From positions 15,996,001 through 16,060,000 of the forward strand of contig OZ024747.1 of the NCBI GenBank assembly GCA_964016885.1: a stretch of DNA of 64,000 bases, written 5' to 3'. Below are positions 1 through 55,089 of the stretch, piece after piece (within the stretch, counting starts at the first letter, position 1; each line of letters begins with the position of its first letter). The notes beneath the pieces are model-generated. The model was not told the DNA's origin and did no database searches. It saw only the letters and a program-made list of their open reading frames with translations. Origin of the DNA: Eledone cirrhosa. Taxonomy: Eukaryota. The translations under genes and the position numbers were made by a program.

Positions 1-3000
1 CGGGGAGGTGGGTTGGAGGTGTGGGGGTGAGAGGTGTGGGGTGTGATGTGTGGGGGTGAGGGTTAGTGGTGGTAGTAGGGTGTGTGTTTAGTGTGAGCGC
101 GTGTATATATGTGCCGGTGGGTGTGTGCGTGTGATAAGGAGGGGGGGGAGAAGAGGGGAGGGAAGGGATGTTAGTATGTTAGTTGGGGAAGAGTGGTCAG
201 AAGAGGGGTGGAGTGGAGGTGTTAGTATTGTTAGTGTGGGGTGGGCGGTGAAAAGGAGGGGTGTGTTAGTGGTGTTAGTGGGGGATAAGTGTGGGGGGAG
301 GGGGCTGGTCGAACGCTAGAGGAATAAGGGTGGGGAGTTCAGGCCGGGGGTAGTGTGGGTCTGTAAGATGAAGATAGTTCGTTGTTCGACCGTAAGGCGA
401 TGGGCGGGTGTTCCGTGGCATTGGAGTAGGCCACAGACTGTGAGATGGCGTGCGGAGTGTCCAGGGCCACCAAAGTGGCGGGCGATGGGGGAACTGCCCC
501 CGAGACGAATATCCCGGAGGTGCTTCGTGTAGGTCCGCCAGGCGACGTCCCGTCCATCCGACATAAGTCGCGCAGCGACGTCCGTAGACTAGGTTGGAGG
601 AGGTGCAGCGGAAGGCATGCCGGACCGAGAGAGAGTGGCCGTTGGGACCCTGGAAGGTGGTGGTGTTGGTGATGTGGGGACAGGTGTTGCAGCGAGGCCT
701 AGAACAGGGAAAGGAACCGGGGGAGGGACAGAGCGTGGGTTGGGGGGTAGGGAGCTGTGGACGAGGAGGGTGCGGAGATTGCGTGCGCGTTTGAAGGAGG
801 GGAGTGGTGGGTTGGGAAGATGTGGGAGGTGGAGGGGTCGGACTGGAGGCATCGGAAGAGGCGGCAGATGGTGCGGTGGAGGGGTAAGGTGGAGGGGTGG
901 TAGGTGATGGGGAAGGGGAGACGGTGGGTGGGTGTGCGGTGGCGTGGGGTGAGGGTGGTGGAGCGGGAGACAGCACGGGCACGGGTGACAGCGGTGTAGA
1001 CGAGATAGGGGTGTAGACAGCGGTGTAGACGAGACAGGATCCAATGGCTGACTAGGGAAAGGGCCTGGGACTCGAAGTCAGCATCACGGCTACAGAGGCG
1101 GCGGATCCTGAGAAGTTGGGAGTAGGGAATGGAGTGTTTAGTGTGGGTGAGGTGGGAAGAGGTGAAGTCGAGGTAAGAGTGGGAGTCGGTGGGTTTGAAG
1201 AAGGCGGAGGTGACGAGGGAGTGGTGGGAGGGGTCGAAGGCGACGGAGATGTCTAAGAATTGGACGTGGGTGGTGGAGATAGAGGTGGTGAAGTGGGGGG
1301 AGGGGTGGAAGGAGCAGAAGAAGGAGAGAAAGGAGTCGAGCTGTTCTCGGGTGAGGGTCGTGGCTCCGATACAGTCGTCAATGTAACGACCGTACAGTTC
1401 GGGCGTGGTGCCGGTGTACTGGGCAAAGATTTGGGCCTCAACATGGCCAACAAAAAGGTTGGCATAGTTCGGGCCCATTCTTGTGCCCATGGCTAACCCC
1501 GTGACCTGTTGGTAAAACTCACCCGAGAAGGAGAAACAATTTAGGGTGAGGACCAGCTCGGCGAGGCGAAGGAGGGTGGAGGTGGAGGGAATGTGGGAGG
1601 GGCGAAGGTCGAGGTAGTGTTTGAGGGCGTGAAGGCCGTCGGCGTGAGGGATGACTGTATAAAGGGACTTGATGTCTAGGGTGAAGAGGAAGGGCTGTGG
1701 GCCGGGTAGGTAGGTGAAGGAGTCGAAAAGGCGCTGGGCGTGGTTGGTGTCGGAGATGTGGGAGGGGAGGGTGGTGACAAGGGGGGCGAGGAGGGAGTCG
1801 AGAAAGGCGGAGATGAGTTCGGTGGGGCAGTTGCAAGCGGAGACGATGGGGCGGCCGGGGTTATCGGGTTTGTGGAGTTTGGGGAGGAAGTAGATGGTGG
1901 GGGTGCGGGGGGTGCGGACGATGAGGTGGGAAGCGGTGGGGGGGAGGAGGGAGGAGGCGATAAGGTCTTTGATGGTGGAGGAGACTTGTTGTTGGTAGAG
2001 GGGGTGGGATCGGGGGGTAGAGGGCGGTAAAAGAGGGGTTACAGAGCTGCCTGAGGGCTTCGGCCGTGTAGAGGTCCGCGCGTCATACCACTACGGCCCC
2101 TCCCTTGTCCACTGGTTTGATGACGATGTCATCTCGGCTACGGAGGGAGCGGAGAGCGAGGAGTTCGCCCCGTGAGATATTGTGCCGTTTGGAACGGTGG
2201 CGGAAGTCGAAACGATTTACTGCGCTACGGCTGGCATCGACGAAGGCGTCCAGGGTGCTAAATTGCCCTGGGGCCGGCGTCCAAGAAGATGGTCGTCGGC
2301 CCAGGGCGAGAAACGGCTCTGGGGCGTCCGGAGCCGGTGGCGTTCGGCTGAAATGTGCCTGCAGCTTAGTGCGTCGCACGAATCGCTCGACTTCCGTTCG
2401 GGTGCGGAACTCGTCGCTGTGCGGAGTGTGGGGTATGAAGCGAAGGCCTCTACTAAGGAGTGAGTGCTCAGGTGCAGAGAGGGGTAGGTCAGGGGGTATG
2501 GTGACAACAAGGGGTGGGGTTTGGGGGTTGGGGGGTATGGGGATGGACGGGTGGTTGTGGATGGGGGGGGGTGTAGCTTGCGGGCTTTTTGGAGCTGAGG
2601 AACGAGAAGAGGTTGTGGTTGAGGTTGTGGATGAAGGAGCGGATGGCTTGGGAGAGGAGCGGGTGGCAGGTGGAGTAAAGGCGGAGGAGGGTGGGGGTCA
2701 GTTGGTGGTCAAGTAGGCGGAGGGTGGAACGGGAGGCGCGGATGGAGTTGCGCATCAGGAGGCGTGAGGATCGGGTGAGGATACGTTGCGTGGAGGGGGA
2801 AGCGGCGGGGGAGGGATGGAAGTGTAGACGGAAGCCGAGGGGGATAAGGTGGAGGCGGAGGCAGTGGCTGAGTAAATGGATGTGGCTGGAGTGCCGGGTT
2901 TTGGCGAAGAGAAGGTAGGAGAGTTGAAGGGCGGAGGGGAGATAGCAGGGTGGGAGGAGGGGGGTGAGGAAAAGTTTGAGGCGATTGTGTAGTTGGTGGA

Positions 3001-3575
3001 GAAAGGATCTCAGGTTGGGCATGATGGGCGTTGGGTGAAAGCAGGGGGAGGGATGAGAGGGCAGGTGTGTGAAGCGGGGTGGAGTGAACGAAGGGGTGAG
3101 TGCGAAGGATAGGCAGAGACGGGGAAGGGAAAATGAAACAGAAAAACGTAGGGAGGGGGGAGTAAACACAGGAAAATTAAAGACAAAAAATCATAAAGGT
3201 AAAAACACAGGCGATCGTGAACAAAAAATCATAGAAATACAATTGTAAGAACACAGGCAAAGAATCTTAATGTGGGCATGGCCGGATGAGGAAGAGAAAT
3301 CAGCAATGAGTAAGGGTTGGGTCATGGAGGTGGTGTTCTGGGTGGGGGATTAAAGATGGGGAAGGGGTTGAGTGTTGAATCAAAGTAGGTGATCTTGAGG
3401 GAAGGGTCACCATCTTTCTACGCTAGAATAGGTTAGATGGAGGAGGAATTGGGGATGTGAATTGGCCCCCAACCCCTAAGTGGCAAGGCATATCGGTAAG
3501 TGGAGACCTAAAATTGTTGCTAAACATCTCTGCATGTTTCATCCCACTCATATGGGCAGGTCAGCTATAGTACAG
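1..3575 (-). mobile_element. Penelope-like retroelement (probably Neptune-type), near full length, 3' end runs off the window
   Basis: Minus-strand translation gives PLE motifs DDIVIKPVDKGGAVVV, YFLPKLHKPDNPGRPIVS, LFTLDIKSLYTVIPH, MGTRMGPNYANLFVG, YGRYIDD, KPTDSHSYLDFTSSH and SIPYSQLLRIRRLCS. These are followed by the Cys linker FPCSRPRCNTC and a degenerate GIY-YIG (NLVY...YVGWTGRRL...HF...H...PGLN). The 5' end abuts a (CA)/(TA) tract. Confidence 0.93.
316..3169 (-). pseudogene. PLE reverse transcriptase + GIY-YIG endonuclease ORF, disrupted
   Basis: Split over ORF-track pieces 2489-3169, 2083-2379, 699-1490, 275-982 and 316-564. There is a TGA after GGAVVV, frameshifts, and a local duplication at about 986-1040. 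Confidence 0.88.
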
Positions 3576-28956: not shown

Positions 28957-31420
28957 CAATAATGATAACGACAACAACAACAATAATAATATACATATAT
29001 ATATATATACACACACACGCACACCCATAAACATATCTATACACACACACACACACACACGATAGCAACTAACAGCGCTGCGATCGAATGTGGCATTTTA
29101 GCCCAGCCAATGATCTAAAATGTCTTGCACAGAGTCGGCAACCAAAACATTCACTGGGAATAGTCGGCTGTGGTTGGAGTTCATGTACTTTTGCATGTCG
29201 TTTGAGCCCTCCTGCTGATTTAGATTCCTTACCACATGCTTGGCAAACATGATGAGTAGCATCTCCAACAGCAGCCTGGTAGTTAACCACTGGTCTTACT
29301 TTATGACTGCGAAGATGACTTTCGAGTCCAGCTTTGCTTAGGCAGAGTCACGCACAGACCCTGCATGTCAGCACCATTGGAGGACCCTCGTCGTCTGGAA
29401 GTGCAACAACAATGCCCTTCGTCACATCGCGCTTTACTTTCTCGTATGTGATTCAAGATGCCTCAAAGGCAACTTTTCCCTCATATACAGTCTTTCTCCA
29501 TTTATTACTATCAGCAGTAATATTTTCCCATGTATCAACAGAGATGTTAGCGTCTTTCAAAGAGGTTTTCAAGGAATCCTTATACCTCTTTTTTGGCTTA
29601 TGTGGCGGTCGTTTTCCTTTAACTAACTCTCCATAAAAGAGTTTTTTTGGTATTCTAGAATCCTTCATCCTGGCAAGGTGACCACTCCAACGGAGTCGTT
29701 GCTTAAGCACAAGAGCTTCTATACTGTCACACATAGAGCTTTCCAAAATCTCGACATCAGTGAACGCCATGGACATCAGTGAACGCCATGGATCCGTCTG
29801 AGACACATCTGATGGAAACGCTCAAATTGCTAAAGGCGGTGTCGATACGTGACACAGGTCTCGCAGGCATAAAGAAGAGAAGAGAGCACGCGTGCCTTGT
29901 ACACCTTTACCTTTGTCTTCTTGCATATGTCTCGCCGACCCCAGAGTCGCCTTTCTAGCTTTCCGAAAGCATCACTTGCTTTCCTAATCCTACATGAGAT
30001 TTCACTATCAAGGTTGCTGTATCGATTGACAGTGCTTCCCAGGTAGACAAACTGATCAACCACACCAAGTCGTTTACCATACACATAGATATTCGGTTCA
30101 GTGTACTGCTTACCAGGGGCAGGTTGGTACATGACGACGGTTTTCTTGAGACTGACAGTCAATCCTAGGGCAGTGCAAGCGTCAGAAAATGCATTCAAAA
30201 TGTGCTGCATATCACTCTCTGTGTGCGCTACAAGATCGCAATCATCTGCAAACAAGAGGTCTCTTATGATTGATGTAAATACTTTTGTCTTTGCAGCAAA
30301 GCGCCTGATGTTAAACATGCTGCCTGAGATTCGATATCGGATGTAAACACCATGCTCGCAATTCCTGAATGCAATACAGAAAACCATTGCAAAGTATATG
30401 GCAACCAGGGTCGGTGATGGAATATCCCCCCGTTTCACTCCATTTTTTACTGAGATAGGCTCCGACATGTTACCTCCGACATTAACCCAAGTCTTCATGT
30501 GGTCATGGAAAGACCTAACTAAAGCAAGGAACTTATCAGGGCAACCAAGTTTCTGGAGAACCTTCCATAATGCATTTCTGTTAACAGTATCGAAAGCTCT
30601 TGTCAGATCGACAAAAACCTGATACAGATCCAAACCTTCTTCCATGCACTTCTCCTGGAGCTGTCTAGCTGAGAAGATCATATCAGTAGTGTCGCGTCCA
30701 GCACGAAAACCAGATTGACTTTCAGGAAGAACACAATCTGCAATGTGTGTCAGCAGACGGTCCAGATGCACTCTACATAAAACTTTCCCTACGTCAGAAA
30801 GCAATGATATACCTCTGTAGTTCCCACACTCATTCCTGTTACCCTTTCCCTTGTACAAGACCACCATTACTGCATCTCTCCAGTCCTCAGGTACGGATTC
30901 ATTAGCCCATATCCTGCCAAACAAAGAGTGAATATGTTGCAGGAGTCTCTCACCACCATATTGTAGGAGCTCAGCATGTATGCCATCCATACTTGGAGAC
31001 TTCCCACTGTTCAGCTTCGAGATAGCCACTGCAACCTCCACAAGCGTCGGAGGTTCTGCGAGAGCTACTTTCACAGGACTTTCTAGAATGAGATTGATGA
31101 AATCTTCATTGACGACAGACGGCTGATTCAAAAGATCATCAAAGTGCTCCCGCCACCTTCGTAGAATTCCTTGCGAGTCACGAAGAAGTTCTTTGCCATC
31201 CTTGCTGCGAATCGGTGTCACCAGAGAAGAAGACGGTCCATAAACTTCACGCAAGAGACTGTACAACAGCTTTGTGTTATTGGAATCTGACGCAGTTTGT
31301 ATCTCATCAGCCTTCTCACTCCACCACTGATCCTTCATCTGAGAAAGACTCCGCCTAACACGTGATTTTACATCCTTGAGTACCTCATGCAACGTATTCC
31401 TCTCCTGTGCTTTTGCCTAC
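28844..31420 (-). mobile_element. 5'-truncated RTE-clade LINE (BovB-like) with C-terminal C2H2 fingers and (CAT)n tail
   Basis: ORF 29830-31392 contains GNYRGISLL, LPESQSGFRAGR, VFVDLTRAFDTV, LLFADDC and FVYLGS. It continues as RLRWSGHLARM..RIPKKLFYGEL (29453-29806) and CxxC..GLKRH fingers (29069-29290). Confidence 0.93.
29830..31392 (-). pseudogene. RTE LINE reverse transcriptase (truncated, frameshifted downstream)
   Basis: 520-aa ORF with the non-LTR RT domains listed above. Confidence 0.9.
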
Positions 31421-49400: not shown

Positions 49401-50933
49401 GTGTGTGTGTGTGTATATATATGTATCGTAATGCAGACAGCAAGACATAGCTTTCCTTCCCCTCTTCCAGCGTCTCTCTCTCTCCCTCCCGCTATCCCCT
49501 CTTGTAGTCTGTCTCTTTCTTTCACTCTCACCCTCTCTCTACGCGTCGGACAGACAGACAGAGAAATTGCTGGTTATATATTATAAGGAGATAAATAACA
49601 TTAAAAAAAATACATAAGTGGAAACAAAAGAGTGCAAACAAATTTTTCCGGAGAAGTATCTTACTTTCTCCAATAAAAAATATTATGAATTTTGCGAAAT
49701 CCAGAGACTTTCAATAATGACCTTTGGTCTTTCACACTCACTCAATATCTGCTATTTTAAGCGTTAACCTAATATATTCCTTCCATATACTGTACCGATT
49801 GTGTTGTTATATCTCTTTACCTTTTACATACATACACACACATACACACACATATGAATCATATATTTTGGTTTCTATTATTTCTCTGGTTCAAATTAAA
49901 TTAATTCAAATGTTAAGCGCACATAGGAATAATAAGGTTGTTACCAAAGAGCCAGAAGTTGGATAAGTTGACTCTAAATAGGACTAATAACTCTAGGAAT
50001 GCCATGAACGACACCACATCTTTTAAACTTTGATTTTGAAACTAGGTTTATAATTATTAATTTCCATCATACGTTTGTAGATGTCTCGGTGGCGTAGTTG
50101 GGGGAATCAGAGACGGTGGTGATCCTCGTCTGAGGTTCGATCCTGATCGGGAGTAGGGTTACCGATAAACCTTTTCAGTTTTATTCTATGGGATGTAAAA
50201 TAAAATCTGAAAAAGATTACATGTACCTCTTGACCAGGATTGAACTCAAGGCCAGGATCTCGACCGCCACTAATACCTACCGCTAGGCCATAGAGAGAAC
50301 TATGAAATCCTTACGAAAATTTCATACTTATAAACCTACTTTCAAAATTTTATTCTTTCTCTTAGACATTATGTAATTATTTTGAAAGCAAAGAATTGGC
50401 CCATAAAATACTACAGTAGTCCCTGCAATGCTACTTTGGGTCCGTGCAATGCAACCGTGAGCCACCTGGGGCCCACTTGCCATTGGCAACCTGGCCGGTC
50501 CGCCACTCTCTCTCTCTCTATATATATATATATTATATACACACATACATGCACAAGCTTCAGGCAAGAGCACCCTGGTGGGGTGTTGCTCCTTGGGCTG
50601 CTGGTGATGTGGGCCTTCATGTTCTTATCGCAGGAGTATCCTAGTTTAACTTTATGTCGGTTAAAGATGGAGCGGTATTTATGACCTATGGGGAAGTGTC
50701 TATCTAAGAGGGCTAAACATTTTTTTCCTATATTGGTTTTAACATTGAGTGAGAAGGGAGGAGAGAACAAGATAGTTTTTCTATTGTTGCGCTTACTTTT
50801 CTTAATGGTGTTGTTGCTAGTGATAGGTTGTGAGAAGCCGATATTAACCAATGCCGTGTTATAGTCTTGCCGTAAGCCTGAAGCTTGCCCCCTTCAACAG
50901 CAATGCAATACACCAGCTGTAATCTGTGAAGCT

Positions 50934-51712: not shown

Positions 51713-53549
51713 TCTTTTTTCCCCCCCGTCAAACTTGGGCTAAATTCTTTCCTTGCTCACATTTCAACCAGGTCCGATGGTCTTTCGTCTCTTGTTCACG
51801 ATTTCACAGAGTTTATATTCATAGAGATCTGGGACTTGTCTATTTCTACTCACTTTCCGTTGCTTAAACCTTTTTGTTGTTACTCTAGCGTCCCCCTTTA
51901 TTTACGTGTCCCAACGACTTTTTTTAGCCGTTGTTCGCACCAACCTGAGGCATATGGCCCTTAAAGCGATGAAATGCCGAGGACGGTTGGAGGGTCACTG
52001 ATGAAGGACTCACTTTTTCATATGTATCCCATTTGCAACGCCGCAGCTCCATTATTATTATCATCATATTTACACATATAACTTTTCCATGCTGCCTTCG
52101 TCTGTTTCGTTCCTTGTATCTTTACCACTTCTAGCAGTCTCCCTCTCTGTTACTCTCTCCTCAACTTTCACTCACTCATTCTCTGTCACTACCTCTCCTC
52201 CTCCTCTTTCCTCCTCCTCCTTCAAGTTTGACCTGTGTGTAATTCTTTTCTCGCGCAGTCTTGACCGAGCTGGTATGGAATTTTTTCTCTCTCTCTTTCG
52301 TCTGCGACTTCACAAAACTTGCGTTTACCGAATTCGTAGACCAGACCCCCTTATCTTCTTCTTCTTCTTCTTCTTCTTCTTCTTCTTCTTCTTCTTCTTC
52401 TTCTTCTTCTTCTTCTTCTTCTTCTTCTTCTTCTTCTTCTTCTTCTTCTCTCTCTCTCTCTTCCCCCCCCCCGTCAAACTTGGGCGAAATTCTTTCCTTG
52501 CTCACATTTCAACCAGGTCTGATGGTCTTTCGTCTCTTGTTCACGATTTCACAGAGTTTATATTCATAGAGATCTGGGACTTGTCTATTTCTACTCACTT
52601 TCCGTTGCTTAAACCTTTTTGTTGTTACTCTAGCGTCCCCCTTTATTTACGTGTCCCAACGACTTTTTTTAGCCGTTGTTCGCACCAACCTGAGGCATAT
52701 GGCCCTTAAAGCGATGAAATGCCGAGGACGGTTGGAGGGTCACTGATGAAGGACTCACTTTTTCATATGTATCCCATTTGCAACGCCGCAGATCCATTAT
52801 TATTATCATCATATTTACACATATAACTTTTCCATGCTGCCTTCGTCTGTTTCGTTCCTTGTATCTTTACCACTTCTAGCAGTCTCCCTCTCTGTTACTC
52901 TCTCCTCAACTTTCACTCACTCATTCTCTGTCACTACCTCTCCTCCTCCTCTTTCCTCCTCCTCCTTCAAATTTGACCTGTGTGTAATTCTTTTCTCGCG
53001 CAGTCTTGACCGAGCTGGTATGGAATTTTTTTCTCTCTCTCTTTCGGCTGCGACTTCACAAAACTTGCGTTTACCGAATTCGTAGACCAGACCCCCTTAT
53101 CTTCTTCTTCTTCTTCTTCTTCTTCTTCTTCTTCTTCTTCTTCTTCTTCTTCTTCTTCTTCTTCTTCTTCTTCTTCTTCTTCTTCTTCTTCTTCTTCTTC
53201 TTCTTCTTCTTCTTCTCTCCTTTTTCTTTCTCTCTCTCTCTCTCTTCCCCCCCGTCAAACTTGGGCGAAATTCTTTCCTTGCTCACATTTCAACCAGGTC
53301 TGATGGTCTTTCGTCTCTTGTTCACGATTTCACAGAGTTTATATTCATAGAGATCTGGGACTTGTCTATTTCTACTCACTTTCCGTTGCTTAAACCTTTT
53401 TGTTGTTACTCTAGCGTCCCCCTTTATTTACGTGTCCCAACGACTTTTTTTAGCCGTTGTTCGCACCAACCTGAGGCATATGGCCCTTAAAGCGATGAAA
53501 TGCCGAGGACGGTTGGAGGGTCACTGATGAAGGACTCACTTTTTCATAT
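51711..53549 (+). repeat. Family J: about 2.4 tandem copies of a 745-781 bp unit containing (TTC)n, bounded by (TA)n
   Basis: GTCAAACTTGGGC recurs at 51728, 52473 and 53254. The units are near identical apart from (TTC)n length. Confidence 0.93.
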
Positions 53550-53641
53550 ATATATATATATATATATATACCTTATGAAGAGAGAAGAAACATTTAGATA
53601 TAATTAGTAATAAAATGTATCATACCTAAACTGCTCCTAAA

Positions 53642-53733
53642 ATCCTCGACTACGTAGTTTCGTGGCATAAACAAAAACAATATATCATAAAGATATAGAG
53701 TCCTTGCGAGGTCTGCCGACTTATCAAGAGGAT
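53642..53733 (-). ncRNA. Type I hammerhead, U3-A8 variant (family K copy 1)
   Basis: AUCCUC-UUGAUAA-GUCGGCA...UGCCAC-GAAA-CUACGUAG-UC-GAGGAU. Confidence 0.82.
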
Positions 53734-54235
53734 ACCTCATTTTACTAGTCTCAAGAACGCGTCTACACGACGTGAGAAAGAATCCCAAAAGGCGGAGGGG
53801 GAGATAGTCACGCGATATAACGGTCGAGAAACAGAGCTAAGCCTCTTATAACCCCGAAGAAAATACCACGGAGGCGGAGGGGGTATTCATATCGAGGCCG
53901 CAGAAGAGTGGTGAAGAAGGCGAGAAGTATGAGTAATGGAAGCCTTCCAGCTGTCCCCACACTTTAAAGATTGCTCGACCAGAGGGAGTTATTAACAATA
54001 TATTTAGAAACACACAGATACATGCGGACACACACATATATACATGAATGTATCCGCACCCAACTGTGAGTTAAGGGTGCCAACTTCACCGATGTTGCTC
54101 AATGAATGACTGGGACAGACCAATTCGGTTGAACTAGACTGAACCAGTATCAGAGTTAAAAATACCTTATGAAGAGAGAAGAAACATTTAGATATAATTA
54201 GTAATAAAATGTATCATACCTAAACTGCTCCTAAA

Positions 54236-54327
54236 TTCCTCGACTACGTAGTTTCGTGGCATAAACAAAAACAATATATCATAAAGATATAGGGTCCTTG
54301 CGAGGTCTGCCGACTTATCAAGAGGAT
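54236..54327 (-). ncRNA. Type I hammerhead, U3-A8 variant (family K copy 2)
   Basis: Same motif 594 bp away. Confidence 0.82.
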
Positions 54328-54531
54328 ACCTCATTTTACTAGTCTCAAGAACGCGTCTACACGACGTGAGAAAGAATCCCAAAAGGCGGAGGGGGAGATA
54401 GTCACGCGATATAACGGTCGAGAAACAGTCATTCATTGAGCAACATCGGTGAAGTTGGCACCCTTAACTCACAGTTGGGTGCGGATGCATTCATGTATAT
54501 ATGTGTGTGTCCGCATGTATCTGTGTGTTTC

Positions 54532-54626
<95 letters not shown>

Positions 54627-54644
54627 TATATATATGTATATATA

Positions 54645-55089
54645 TATAAACGTTTGTATATGTATAATAAAGCCAAAACAATACAGGTATGGACATAGAA
54701 TAAAGATTGCAAATGCAAAATATATTGTTGACAATTAGTCCTTTACCTTAGATTTATTTAAATGTCCTTAATTTTCGAAATAATATCTCTTCGGAGGAGG
54801 AAAGTAAAGCGGTGTTCTAAATAGCTTGCCAAGTCATCCTGTCAGCATGATTTGGCAAGCTATTTAGAACACTGGTTTAACCGCTTTACTTCCCTCCGAA
54901 GAAGAGATATTATCTCGAAAATTAAGGACATTTAAATAAATCTAAGTTAAAAGACTAATTGTCATCAATATCTTTTTTATTTGCATTCTTTATTCTATGT
55001 CTATACCTGCATTGTTTGGGCTTTATTATACATATACAAACGTTTATACCTCATTACACAATGATTCAAGTGAACTATAGCCTCCTCGT
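54645..55089. mobile_element. Family L diverged palindrome (about 54645-54838 / 54847-55048) plus tail, in (TA)n
   Basis: Reverse-complement arms with several mismatches. A degenerate HHR-like motif lies at 54893-54927. Confidence 0.85.

What the first reader, a model, noticed from the sequence alone, without database searches (positions are those of the whole stretch)
53569..54540. 594-nt non-coding monomer bracketed by two tandem hammerheads (retrozyme-like, potential circRNA)
Seen: identical minus-strand HHRs at 53642-53733 and 54236-54327 lie exactly 594 bp apart, with no credible ORF between them. An inverted short arm is joined through a CAG microhomology at 54426-54428. Established: tandem type I HHRs release monomer RNAs that circularise in animal non-LTR retrozymes. 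Inference: double GUC cleavage releases a 594-nt RNA, and copying a circular template past its origin explains the 1.45-mer insert.
Basis: partly seen in the sequence, partly recalled or inferred. Interest (0 to 1): 0.85.

Follow-up and report, generated by a model that had tools for sequence, protein, structure and literature searches.

The report
Penelope-copied retrozyme bearing ribozyme-cut footprints
This is one copy of an abundant non-coding jumping repeat of a known kind (an animal retrozyme) with a predicted self-cutting RNA, and the ends of its many copies suggest that a borrowed Penelope-type enzyme likely copies it, probably as a small RNA circle, from two fixed start points into TA repeats.

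Summary
They lie 594 bp apart, and the inverted arm and CAG junction are real. The locus is not unique: the hammerhead's 24-nt 3' core has 7,444 exact copies in the genome. It is a non-LTR retrozyme with the published U3-A8 core and Penelope-type insertions in (TA)n. Tested here: (1) all 56 classifiable two-armed insertions pair one end at monomer position 594 (A) with one at about 165 (B); (2) monomers within an insertion are near-identical, and private variants are shared by both arms; (3) cDNA ends are in excess at and just 3' of the predicted cut (11 at the cut, 8 four bases 3', 2 two bases 5'; 3 of 50 in a sister family); (4) helix III stays palindromic in three variants. Best model: ribozyme release, circularisation, then two-ended target-primed copying. 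Cleavage, circles, expression and the partner enzyme are not shown.

The parts
53569..54162 (-). Full 594-nt monomer (numbered 1-594 on the minus strand); position 594 at 53569 is fixed outer end A
54163..54428 (-). Upstream partial monomer (positions 329-594), 5'-truncated; with the full monomer it forms the 860-nt arm A
54426..54540 (+). Inverted arm B (monomer positions 51-165), ending at fixed outer end B
54426..54428 (.). CAG microhomology joining the inner ends of the two arms
53642..53733 (-). Downstream type I hammerhead, U3-A8 core, palindromic helix III; predicted cut 53648|53647
54236..54327 (-). Upstream type I hammerhead; predicted cut 54242|54241
53648..54241 (-). Predicted released 594-nt RNA (cut to cut); folds as a circle at -176.7 kcal/mol, z -5.7
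   Evidence: release itself is inferred
53546..53568 (.). (TA)n target tract, left flank
54541..54619 (.). (TA)n target tract, right flank

Best explanation
This is one insertion of a young, high-copy, non-coding hammerhead repeat (a non-LTR retrozyme) that is likely copied into TA repeats by a Penelope-like RT-endonuclease acting in trans, probably from a 594-nt RNA circle. Steps: (1, inferred) tandem copies are transcribed on the minus strand and the two hammerheads, pairing through the palindromic helix III, cut after GUC to release a 594-nt monomer; (2, inferred from known retrozymes) the monomer is ligated into a circle; (3, inferred) a PLE protein nicks both strands of a (TA)n tract and primes cDNA from both 3' ends, one at monomer position 594 and the other at about 165; (4, shown as anatomy) each arm runs for a variable length, often past its own start, giving tandem monomers; (5, shown as anatomy) the two inner ends are joined head to head, mostly with a short overlap. 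A minority of templates are likely cleaved linear RNAs, on which the cDNA runs off at the cut site. This locus is arm A of 860 nt plus arm B of 115 nt.
For: Copy number: 7,444 exact 24-mers, control 0. Target: 109 of 111 A or B outer ends have (TA)4 within 25 nt. Pairing: 39 of 39 classifiable two-armed insertions in two samples and 17 of 17 in a third are A+B, none A+A or B+B (binomial p 3e-17); the same two ends persist in a 70-80% identical sister family. More-than-unit copying on both arms: 9 of 39 have both arms over 594 nt; L097 has about 6.7 and 7.5 monomers. One template: differences are 0.29% within arms and 0.26% between arms, against a median of about 2.3% to other insertions; L090, L097 and L098 carry private variants in every monomer of both arms; 50 of 51 partial variants in insertions with 3 or more copies are singletons. 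Cut site: 14 of 23 copies lacking C515 are junctions exactly at G516 (11 independent) among about 2,128 passes, against 3.2 expected and 2 at position 514 (p 0.022); 3 of 50 sister-family ends are at the same base. RNA-level selection: circular fold z -5.7 on the sense strand, -176.7 against -133.1 kcal/mol antisense; 14 of 136 predicted pairs show double-sided changes; helix III keeps a palindrome in three variants; two copies cofold into a 10-bp intermolecular helix III. Literature: PAc from Anolis nicks and extends both strands, starts at two internal sites and is a predicted dimer (PMC11167929); the tail is often at one end only (PMC8557442).
Against: No autonomous partner was found: 30 loci each of two abundant PLE families share no sequence with the monomer outside its microsatellite-like part, and the hammerheads seen there are C3-G8. 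The control at position 520 also shows 8 stops (11 vs 8, p 0.65), so the excess is a zone 3' of the cut and could be RT stalling at structure; the expected rate comes from a sample biased to long arms. The nearest other insertion is often only 0-1% away, so closeness within an insertion partly reflects young subfamilies. Arm lengths are uncorrelated (Spearman -0.004, n 39), which gives no support to two enzymes stopping together on one molecule. In PAc, unprocessed RNA was the main substrate, cleavage was dispensable in vitro, and start sites did not differ between strands (PMC11167929). Eight of nine Xenopus retrozyme dimers did not cleave in vitro (10.64898/2026.07.22.740005). The covariation counts come from two clades, so one change is counted many times.
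Confidence: 0.65

Rival explanations
1. Same element and enzyme, but the template is an uncleaved linear multimer transcript of an existing tandem array; the hammerhead cuts only occasionally and circles are incidental.
For: PAc uses unprocessed RNA in vitro (PMC11167929). Young source arrays are already homogeneous, so their transcripts would give near-identical monomers. Most cDNAs pass the cut site without a scar (2,105 with C515).
Against: Copying a linear multimer can only shorten arrays and cannot fix a new private variant in all monomers, yet 42 such shared variants were found among 106 insertions. No partial variant was shared between the two arms; the single 2-of-5 case is in L073.
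Confidence: 0.2
2. The template is the cleaved linear monomer, and the RT makes multimers by jumping from its 5' end to a 3' end (R2-like template jumping, recalled); no covalent circle is needed.
For: cDNA ends at exactly the predicted 5' end of the cleaved monomer. It also gives a single-monomer bottleneck if the jump is to the same molecule.
Against: No indels at the 515/516 junction were listed among the variants, and run-off ends are rare (14 against 2,105 read-throughs). Jumps between molecules would give mosaic arms, which were not seen.
Confidence: 0.1
3. The tandem and inverted copies arise at the DNA level after a single-monomer insertion (slippage, unequal exchange, gene conversion between arms).
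For: Li et al. favour local amplification for vertebrate arrays (10.64898/2026.07.22.740005). Duplicated loci exist here (L053/L056).
Against: It does not explain fixed A and B ends abutting TA on both sides, the 56 of 56 pairing, or ends at the ribozyme cut.
Confidence: 0.05

Closest known systems
Metazoan non-LTR retrozymes (Cervera and de la Pena 2020, PMC7229834, passages read; Li, Clavereau and Pollet 2026, 10.64898/2026.07.22.740005, parts 1-3 of 5 read)
   Same: Non-coding tandem monomers, one type I hammerhead per unit, GC under 50% (42%), no LTR, highly self-paired predicted circle, thousands of copies, PLEs in the same genome.
   Different: 594 nt is above the 150-450 bp of Cervera but inside the 51-972 bp of Li. 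U3-A8 core and a long helix II. Mostly dispersed 1-3-mers with an inverted arm and two fixed ends; 'inverted' occurs 0 times in the main text of PMC7229834. Circular RNA not tested here.
EN+ Penelope-like elements and their pLTR, tail and inverted structure (Craig et al. 2021, PMC8557442, passages; Frangieh et al. 2024, PMC11167929, parts 1-2 of 4; Schostak et al. 2008, PMC2377424, passages)
   Same: 5' truncation, partial tandems, inverted 5' copy, a tail at one end only, (TA)n targeting (reported for Naiads), two internal RT start sites downstream of the hammerhead.
   Different: No ORF; the 'tail' between the two ends is about 165 nt rather than 30-40; arrays reach 7 monomers per arm; no sequence link to an autonomous family was found.
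U3-A8 minimal hammerheads of Schistosoma Cercyon PLEs (Cervera and de la Pena 2014, PMC4209133, parts 1-2 of 4 read)
   Same: Same core covariation, palindromic helix III suited to dimer cleavage; that paper also notes opposite-strand pairs 100-700 bp apart and proposes circular templates for PLE tandems.
   Different: Here helix III is a 10-nt palindrome and helix II has a long extension; the motif sits in a non-autonomous tandem repeat.
MRC1 and other non-autonomous Chlamys PLEs (PMC8557442, passage)
   Same: Non-autonomous, pLTR-forming, multicopy head-to-tail insertions.
   Different: [quoted passage not shown]

Membership tests
Non-LTR retrozyme | Type I hammerhead in each tandem unit | tested here: met
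   Both units in the window and units elsewhere; covariation in helices I and III. Not recognised by Rfam.
Non-LTR retrozyme | Non-coding, no LTR, GC under 50% | tested here: met
   Longest internal frame 91 aa; GC 42%; tandem monomers without LTRs. PBS and PPT not searched for.
Non-LTR retrozyme | Multicopy, tandem dimers to multimers | tested here: met
   7,444 motif copies; up to about 14 monomers in L097.
Non-LTR retrozyme | Monomer size in the reported range | tested here: met
   594 nt; outside 150-450, inside 51-972.
Non-LTR retrozyme | Highly self-paired monomer | tested here: met
   z -5.7, 0 of 60 shuffles as low; 14 of 136 pairs with double-sided change.
Non-LTR retrozyme | Self-cleavage of the RNA | tested here: inconclusive
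   Indirect only: excess of cDNA ends at and just 3' of the predicted cut.
Non-LTR retrozyme | Accumulates as circular RNA in tissue | not testable with these tools
   No RNA run was available to lay.
Non-autonomous PLE derivative | PLE insertion anatomy: partial tandem, inverted 5' arm, tail at one end, microsatellite target | tested here: met
Non-autonomous PLE derivative | Sequence shared with the pLTR of an autonomous PLE | tested here: inconclusive
   None in 30 loci each of two families; other PLE families in the genome were not surveyed.
Autonomous Penelope-like element | ORF with RT and GIY-YIG endonuclease | tested here: not met

The most novel reading that the evidence does not exclude
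The copies form a fossil record of the whole retrozyme cycle in the germline: the hammerhead cuts in vivo (cDNAs run off at the exact cut base), the monomer circle is A-to-I edited before copying (A>G excess among variants shared by all monomers of one insertion), and an asymmetric PLE dimer primes both target strands at two different fixed sites on one RNA circle and rolls round it from both ends. This would explain the tandem, inverted and one-sided tail structures of Penelope elements in general.
Probability: 0.3. Interest if true: 0.8.

Novelty: new variant of a known kind. Interest (0 to 1): 0.55.

Why it matters
How PLEs make tandem, inverted and tailed insertions is stated as unresolved (PMC8557442), and PLE mobilisation of retrozyme circles is proposed but not shown (PMC7229834; 10.64898/2026.07.22.740005). 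This family gives thousands of young insertions with a strict two-end rule, a short non-coding template that is easy to synthesise, and exact predictions (cut base, two start sites, circle against linear) for the existing PAc-type in vitro assay. The class, the U3-A8 core and the general anatomy are already published.

Tried and rejected
Rfam: no hammerhead hit; the miRNA-like matches are TA/TG-repeat artefacts far below gathering scores. Sequencing runs: no RNA holder listed, which says nothing on expression; contigs of 4 runs were laid and cannot show strand, ends or level. One search returned 0 because the pattern carried this copy's private base; repeated. The 50-nt partial matches were a margin of the search, not real ends. 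Correlated arm lengths: rejected. Apparent rule-breakers: L044 (A+A) is a sister-family insertion beside a single-armed copy; L081 (B+B) is a microsatellite-like 80% match; L047, L071, L073, L080 and five loci have an end that could not be classed and were left out of the 56. Partner search: Neptune-like family, Hydra/Naiad-like family and a short-helix-II U3-A8 pattern gave no partner; the clade names are from recalled motifs. Literature searches listed no paper that, by title and abstract start, reports a strict two-end rule, cut-site run-off or editing in animal retrozymes; the library lacks most subscription papers, and the supplements of the bioRxiv preprint were not seen.

Full report
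Observation. The window holds a 594-nt monomer on the minus strand (53569-54162), preceded by a partial second copy (54163-54428) and an inverted 115-nt arm (54426-54540), all inside TA repeats. The direct copies differ at 2 sites, so the hammerheads are near-identical, not identical; the inverted arm differs at 1. The CAG overlap is real. Each hammerhead has helix I of 5-6 bp, core UUGAUAA, a long helix II, GAAA, a palindromic helix III and GUC. Predicted cuts are 594 nt apart. Rfam misses the motif, and the isolated motif folds no better than shuffles. U3-A8 is a published variant of Schistosoma PLE hammerheads (PMC4209133).

Family. A 24-nt piece of the hammerhead has 7,444 exact matches in the 3-Gb genome and the reversed control has 0. 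A DNA search found 1,651 candidates and scored 39, most 97-99% identical. A sister family at 70-80% identity has 141 matches to its own pattern.

Signs of selection on RNA. The monomer folded as a circle gives -176.7 kcal/mol, z -5.7, with 0 of 60 shuffles as low; the antisense strand gives -133.1. In 16 aligned monomers, 14 of 136 predicted pairs have double-sided changes, though the rows fall in two clades. Helix III is palindromic in 23 of 23 sister hammerheads caught by the pattern, in two versions (15 and 8), with a third version in L193; one decayed copy (s185) breaks it and was not caught. Two copies cofold into a 10-bp intermolecular helix III, the dimer mode described in PMC4209133.

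Insertion anatomy. Outer ends fall at monomer position 594 (A) or about 165 (B), and 109 of 111 such ends have (TA)4 within 25 nt. In 27 best-match insertions, 17 are two-armed and all are A+B. In 48 insertions taken in order along contig C1, 21 are A+B, 21 single-armed and 6 unclear; one more (L033/L035) was added by hand as A+B, and L048/L049 and the duplicate L056-L058 were left out. In 36 loci found by cut-site patterns, 17 are A+B, 14 single-armed and 5 unclear. That makes 56 of 56 classifiable. The two apparent exceptions resolved as two adjacent elements and a spurious match. Inner ends vary; 30 of 39 junctions overlap by 1 nt or more, 4 are blunt and 5 have inserts, by BLAST ends. This is the PLE pattern of partial tandem, inverted 5' copy and one-sided tail (PMC8557442), and it matches PAc, which extends both target strands and starts at two internal sites (PMC11167929). 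The tail here is about 165 nt instead of 30-40.

One template per insertion. Monomers differ by 178 of 62,089 compared bases within arms and 148 of 57,042 between arms, against a median of about 2.3% to other insertions; the nearest other insertion is however often within 0-1%. L090, L097 and L098 carry private variants in all monomers of both arms. Over 106 insertions, 42 near-private substitutions are shared by all overlapping copies and 127 are partial; of 51 partial ones with 3 or more copies, 50 are singletons. Nine of 39 insertions have both arms longer than a monomer. A monomer bottleneck followed by more-than-unit copying explains this most simply; a circle does so without junction scars. 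Arm lengths are uncorrelated.

Footprint of the cut. Of 23 copies in which positions 516-538 are not preceded by C, 14 are junctions at G516, the predicted 5' end after cleavage (11 independent, since four share one junction; three have a 2-3 nt overlap, read by eye), and 9 are substitutions. With C there are 2,105. Controls: 2 junctions of 6 matches at 514 and 9 of 11 (8 insertions) at 520. About 3.2 are expected per site from a sample biased to long arms. So 516 exceeds 514 (p 0.022) but not 520 (p 0.65). In the sister family, sampled by a pattern far from the cut, 3 of 50 inner ends are at the same base, one with a 4-nt overlap; 18 of 50 lie in the surrounding 62 nt, and the local probability is 0.003 for three or 0.034 for two. 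This suggests, but does not prove, that some templates were cleaved in vivo; stalling at structure is the alternative.

A>G skew (post hoc). On the RNA strand A>G is 10 of 42 shared variants and 6 of 127 partial ones (p 0.0009; p 0.014 with L086's four counted once). Eight of 10 have a 5' U (p 0.008; 0.075 with L086 once), the ADAR preference as recalled. Two insertions share one of these variants. This is a lead for editing of the template, no more.

Partner. Not found. Two abundant PLE families (30 loci each) share no sequence with the monomer, and the hammerheads seen near them are C3-G8. A short-helix-II U3-A8 pattern found another non-coding family.

Earlier notes of the scan. Four earlier reports describe this family on other DNA with the same two-end reading. 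I had reached that reading before looking; they are not independent support. One gave the Hydra-clade lead, tested only on one family.

Verdict. A real, young non-LTR retrozyme with Penelope-type insertions: a new variant of a known kind. Shown: anatomy, copy number, fixed ends, pairing rule, homogeneity, covariation. Inferred: cleavage, circle, PLE enzyme, two-ended priming. Interest 0.55, for testability of an open mechanism rather than for a new class.

Noticed in passing
window 275-3190 (-): Frameshifted PLE with RT, CxxC linker and GIY-YIG motifs (Neptune-like, label recalled); 17,945 candidates in the genome.
   Followed up: partly
window 52000-53546 (+): Another partial-tandem repeat (spacings 745 and 781) that ends in the same TA tract, tail to tail with the finding; contains a CTGATGA motif.
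   Followed up: no
window 54645-55048: Inverted repeat with 169-nt arms, 91% complementary, 66 nt apart, beside the right TA tract.
   Followed up: no
window 5764 (-) and 5899 (+): Two opposite-strand C3-G8 hammerheads with a palindromic helix III, probably another two-armed insertion.
   Followed up: no
window 50411-50893 (-); L217-L246: Fragment of a Hydra/Naiad-like PLE family; copies end in TA either with or without an extra tail of about 70 nt and carry a C3-G8 hammerhead-like motif.
   Followed up: partly
window 29830-31416 (-): 528-aa non-LTR reverse transcriptase frame (RTE-like, label recalled).
   Followed up: no
L201-L208, L211, L215, L216: A second U3-A8 hammerhead family with short helix II and a different palindrome, TA-inserted, head to head in L205.
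   Followed up: partly
L209/L210 (G000:C4:341452721-341453343): Two tandem monomers that share the same shortened helix II extension, consistent with one deleted template copied twice.
   Followed up: no
L081, L091, L148, L163 flanks: Further PLE families with GIY-YIG frames and C3-G8 hammerhead-like 3' ends next to TA repeats; many different hammerhead families crowd TA tracts in this genome.
   Followed up: partly
runs X4 and X6 laid on window 53540-54560: Contigs from runs coded as organisms B and C cover the monomer; one X6 contig is a diverged hammerhead whose listed differences lie in the helix II extension. Origin of these contigs not examined.
   Followed up: no
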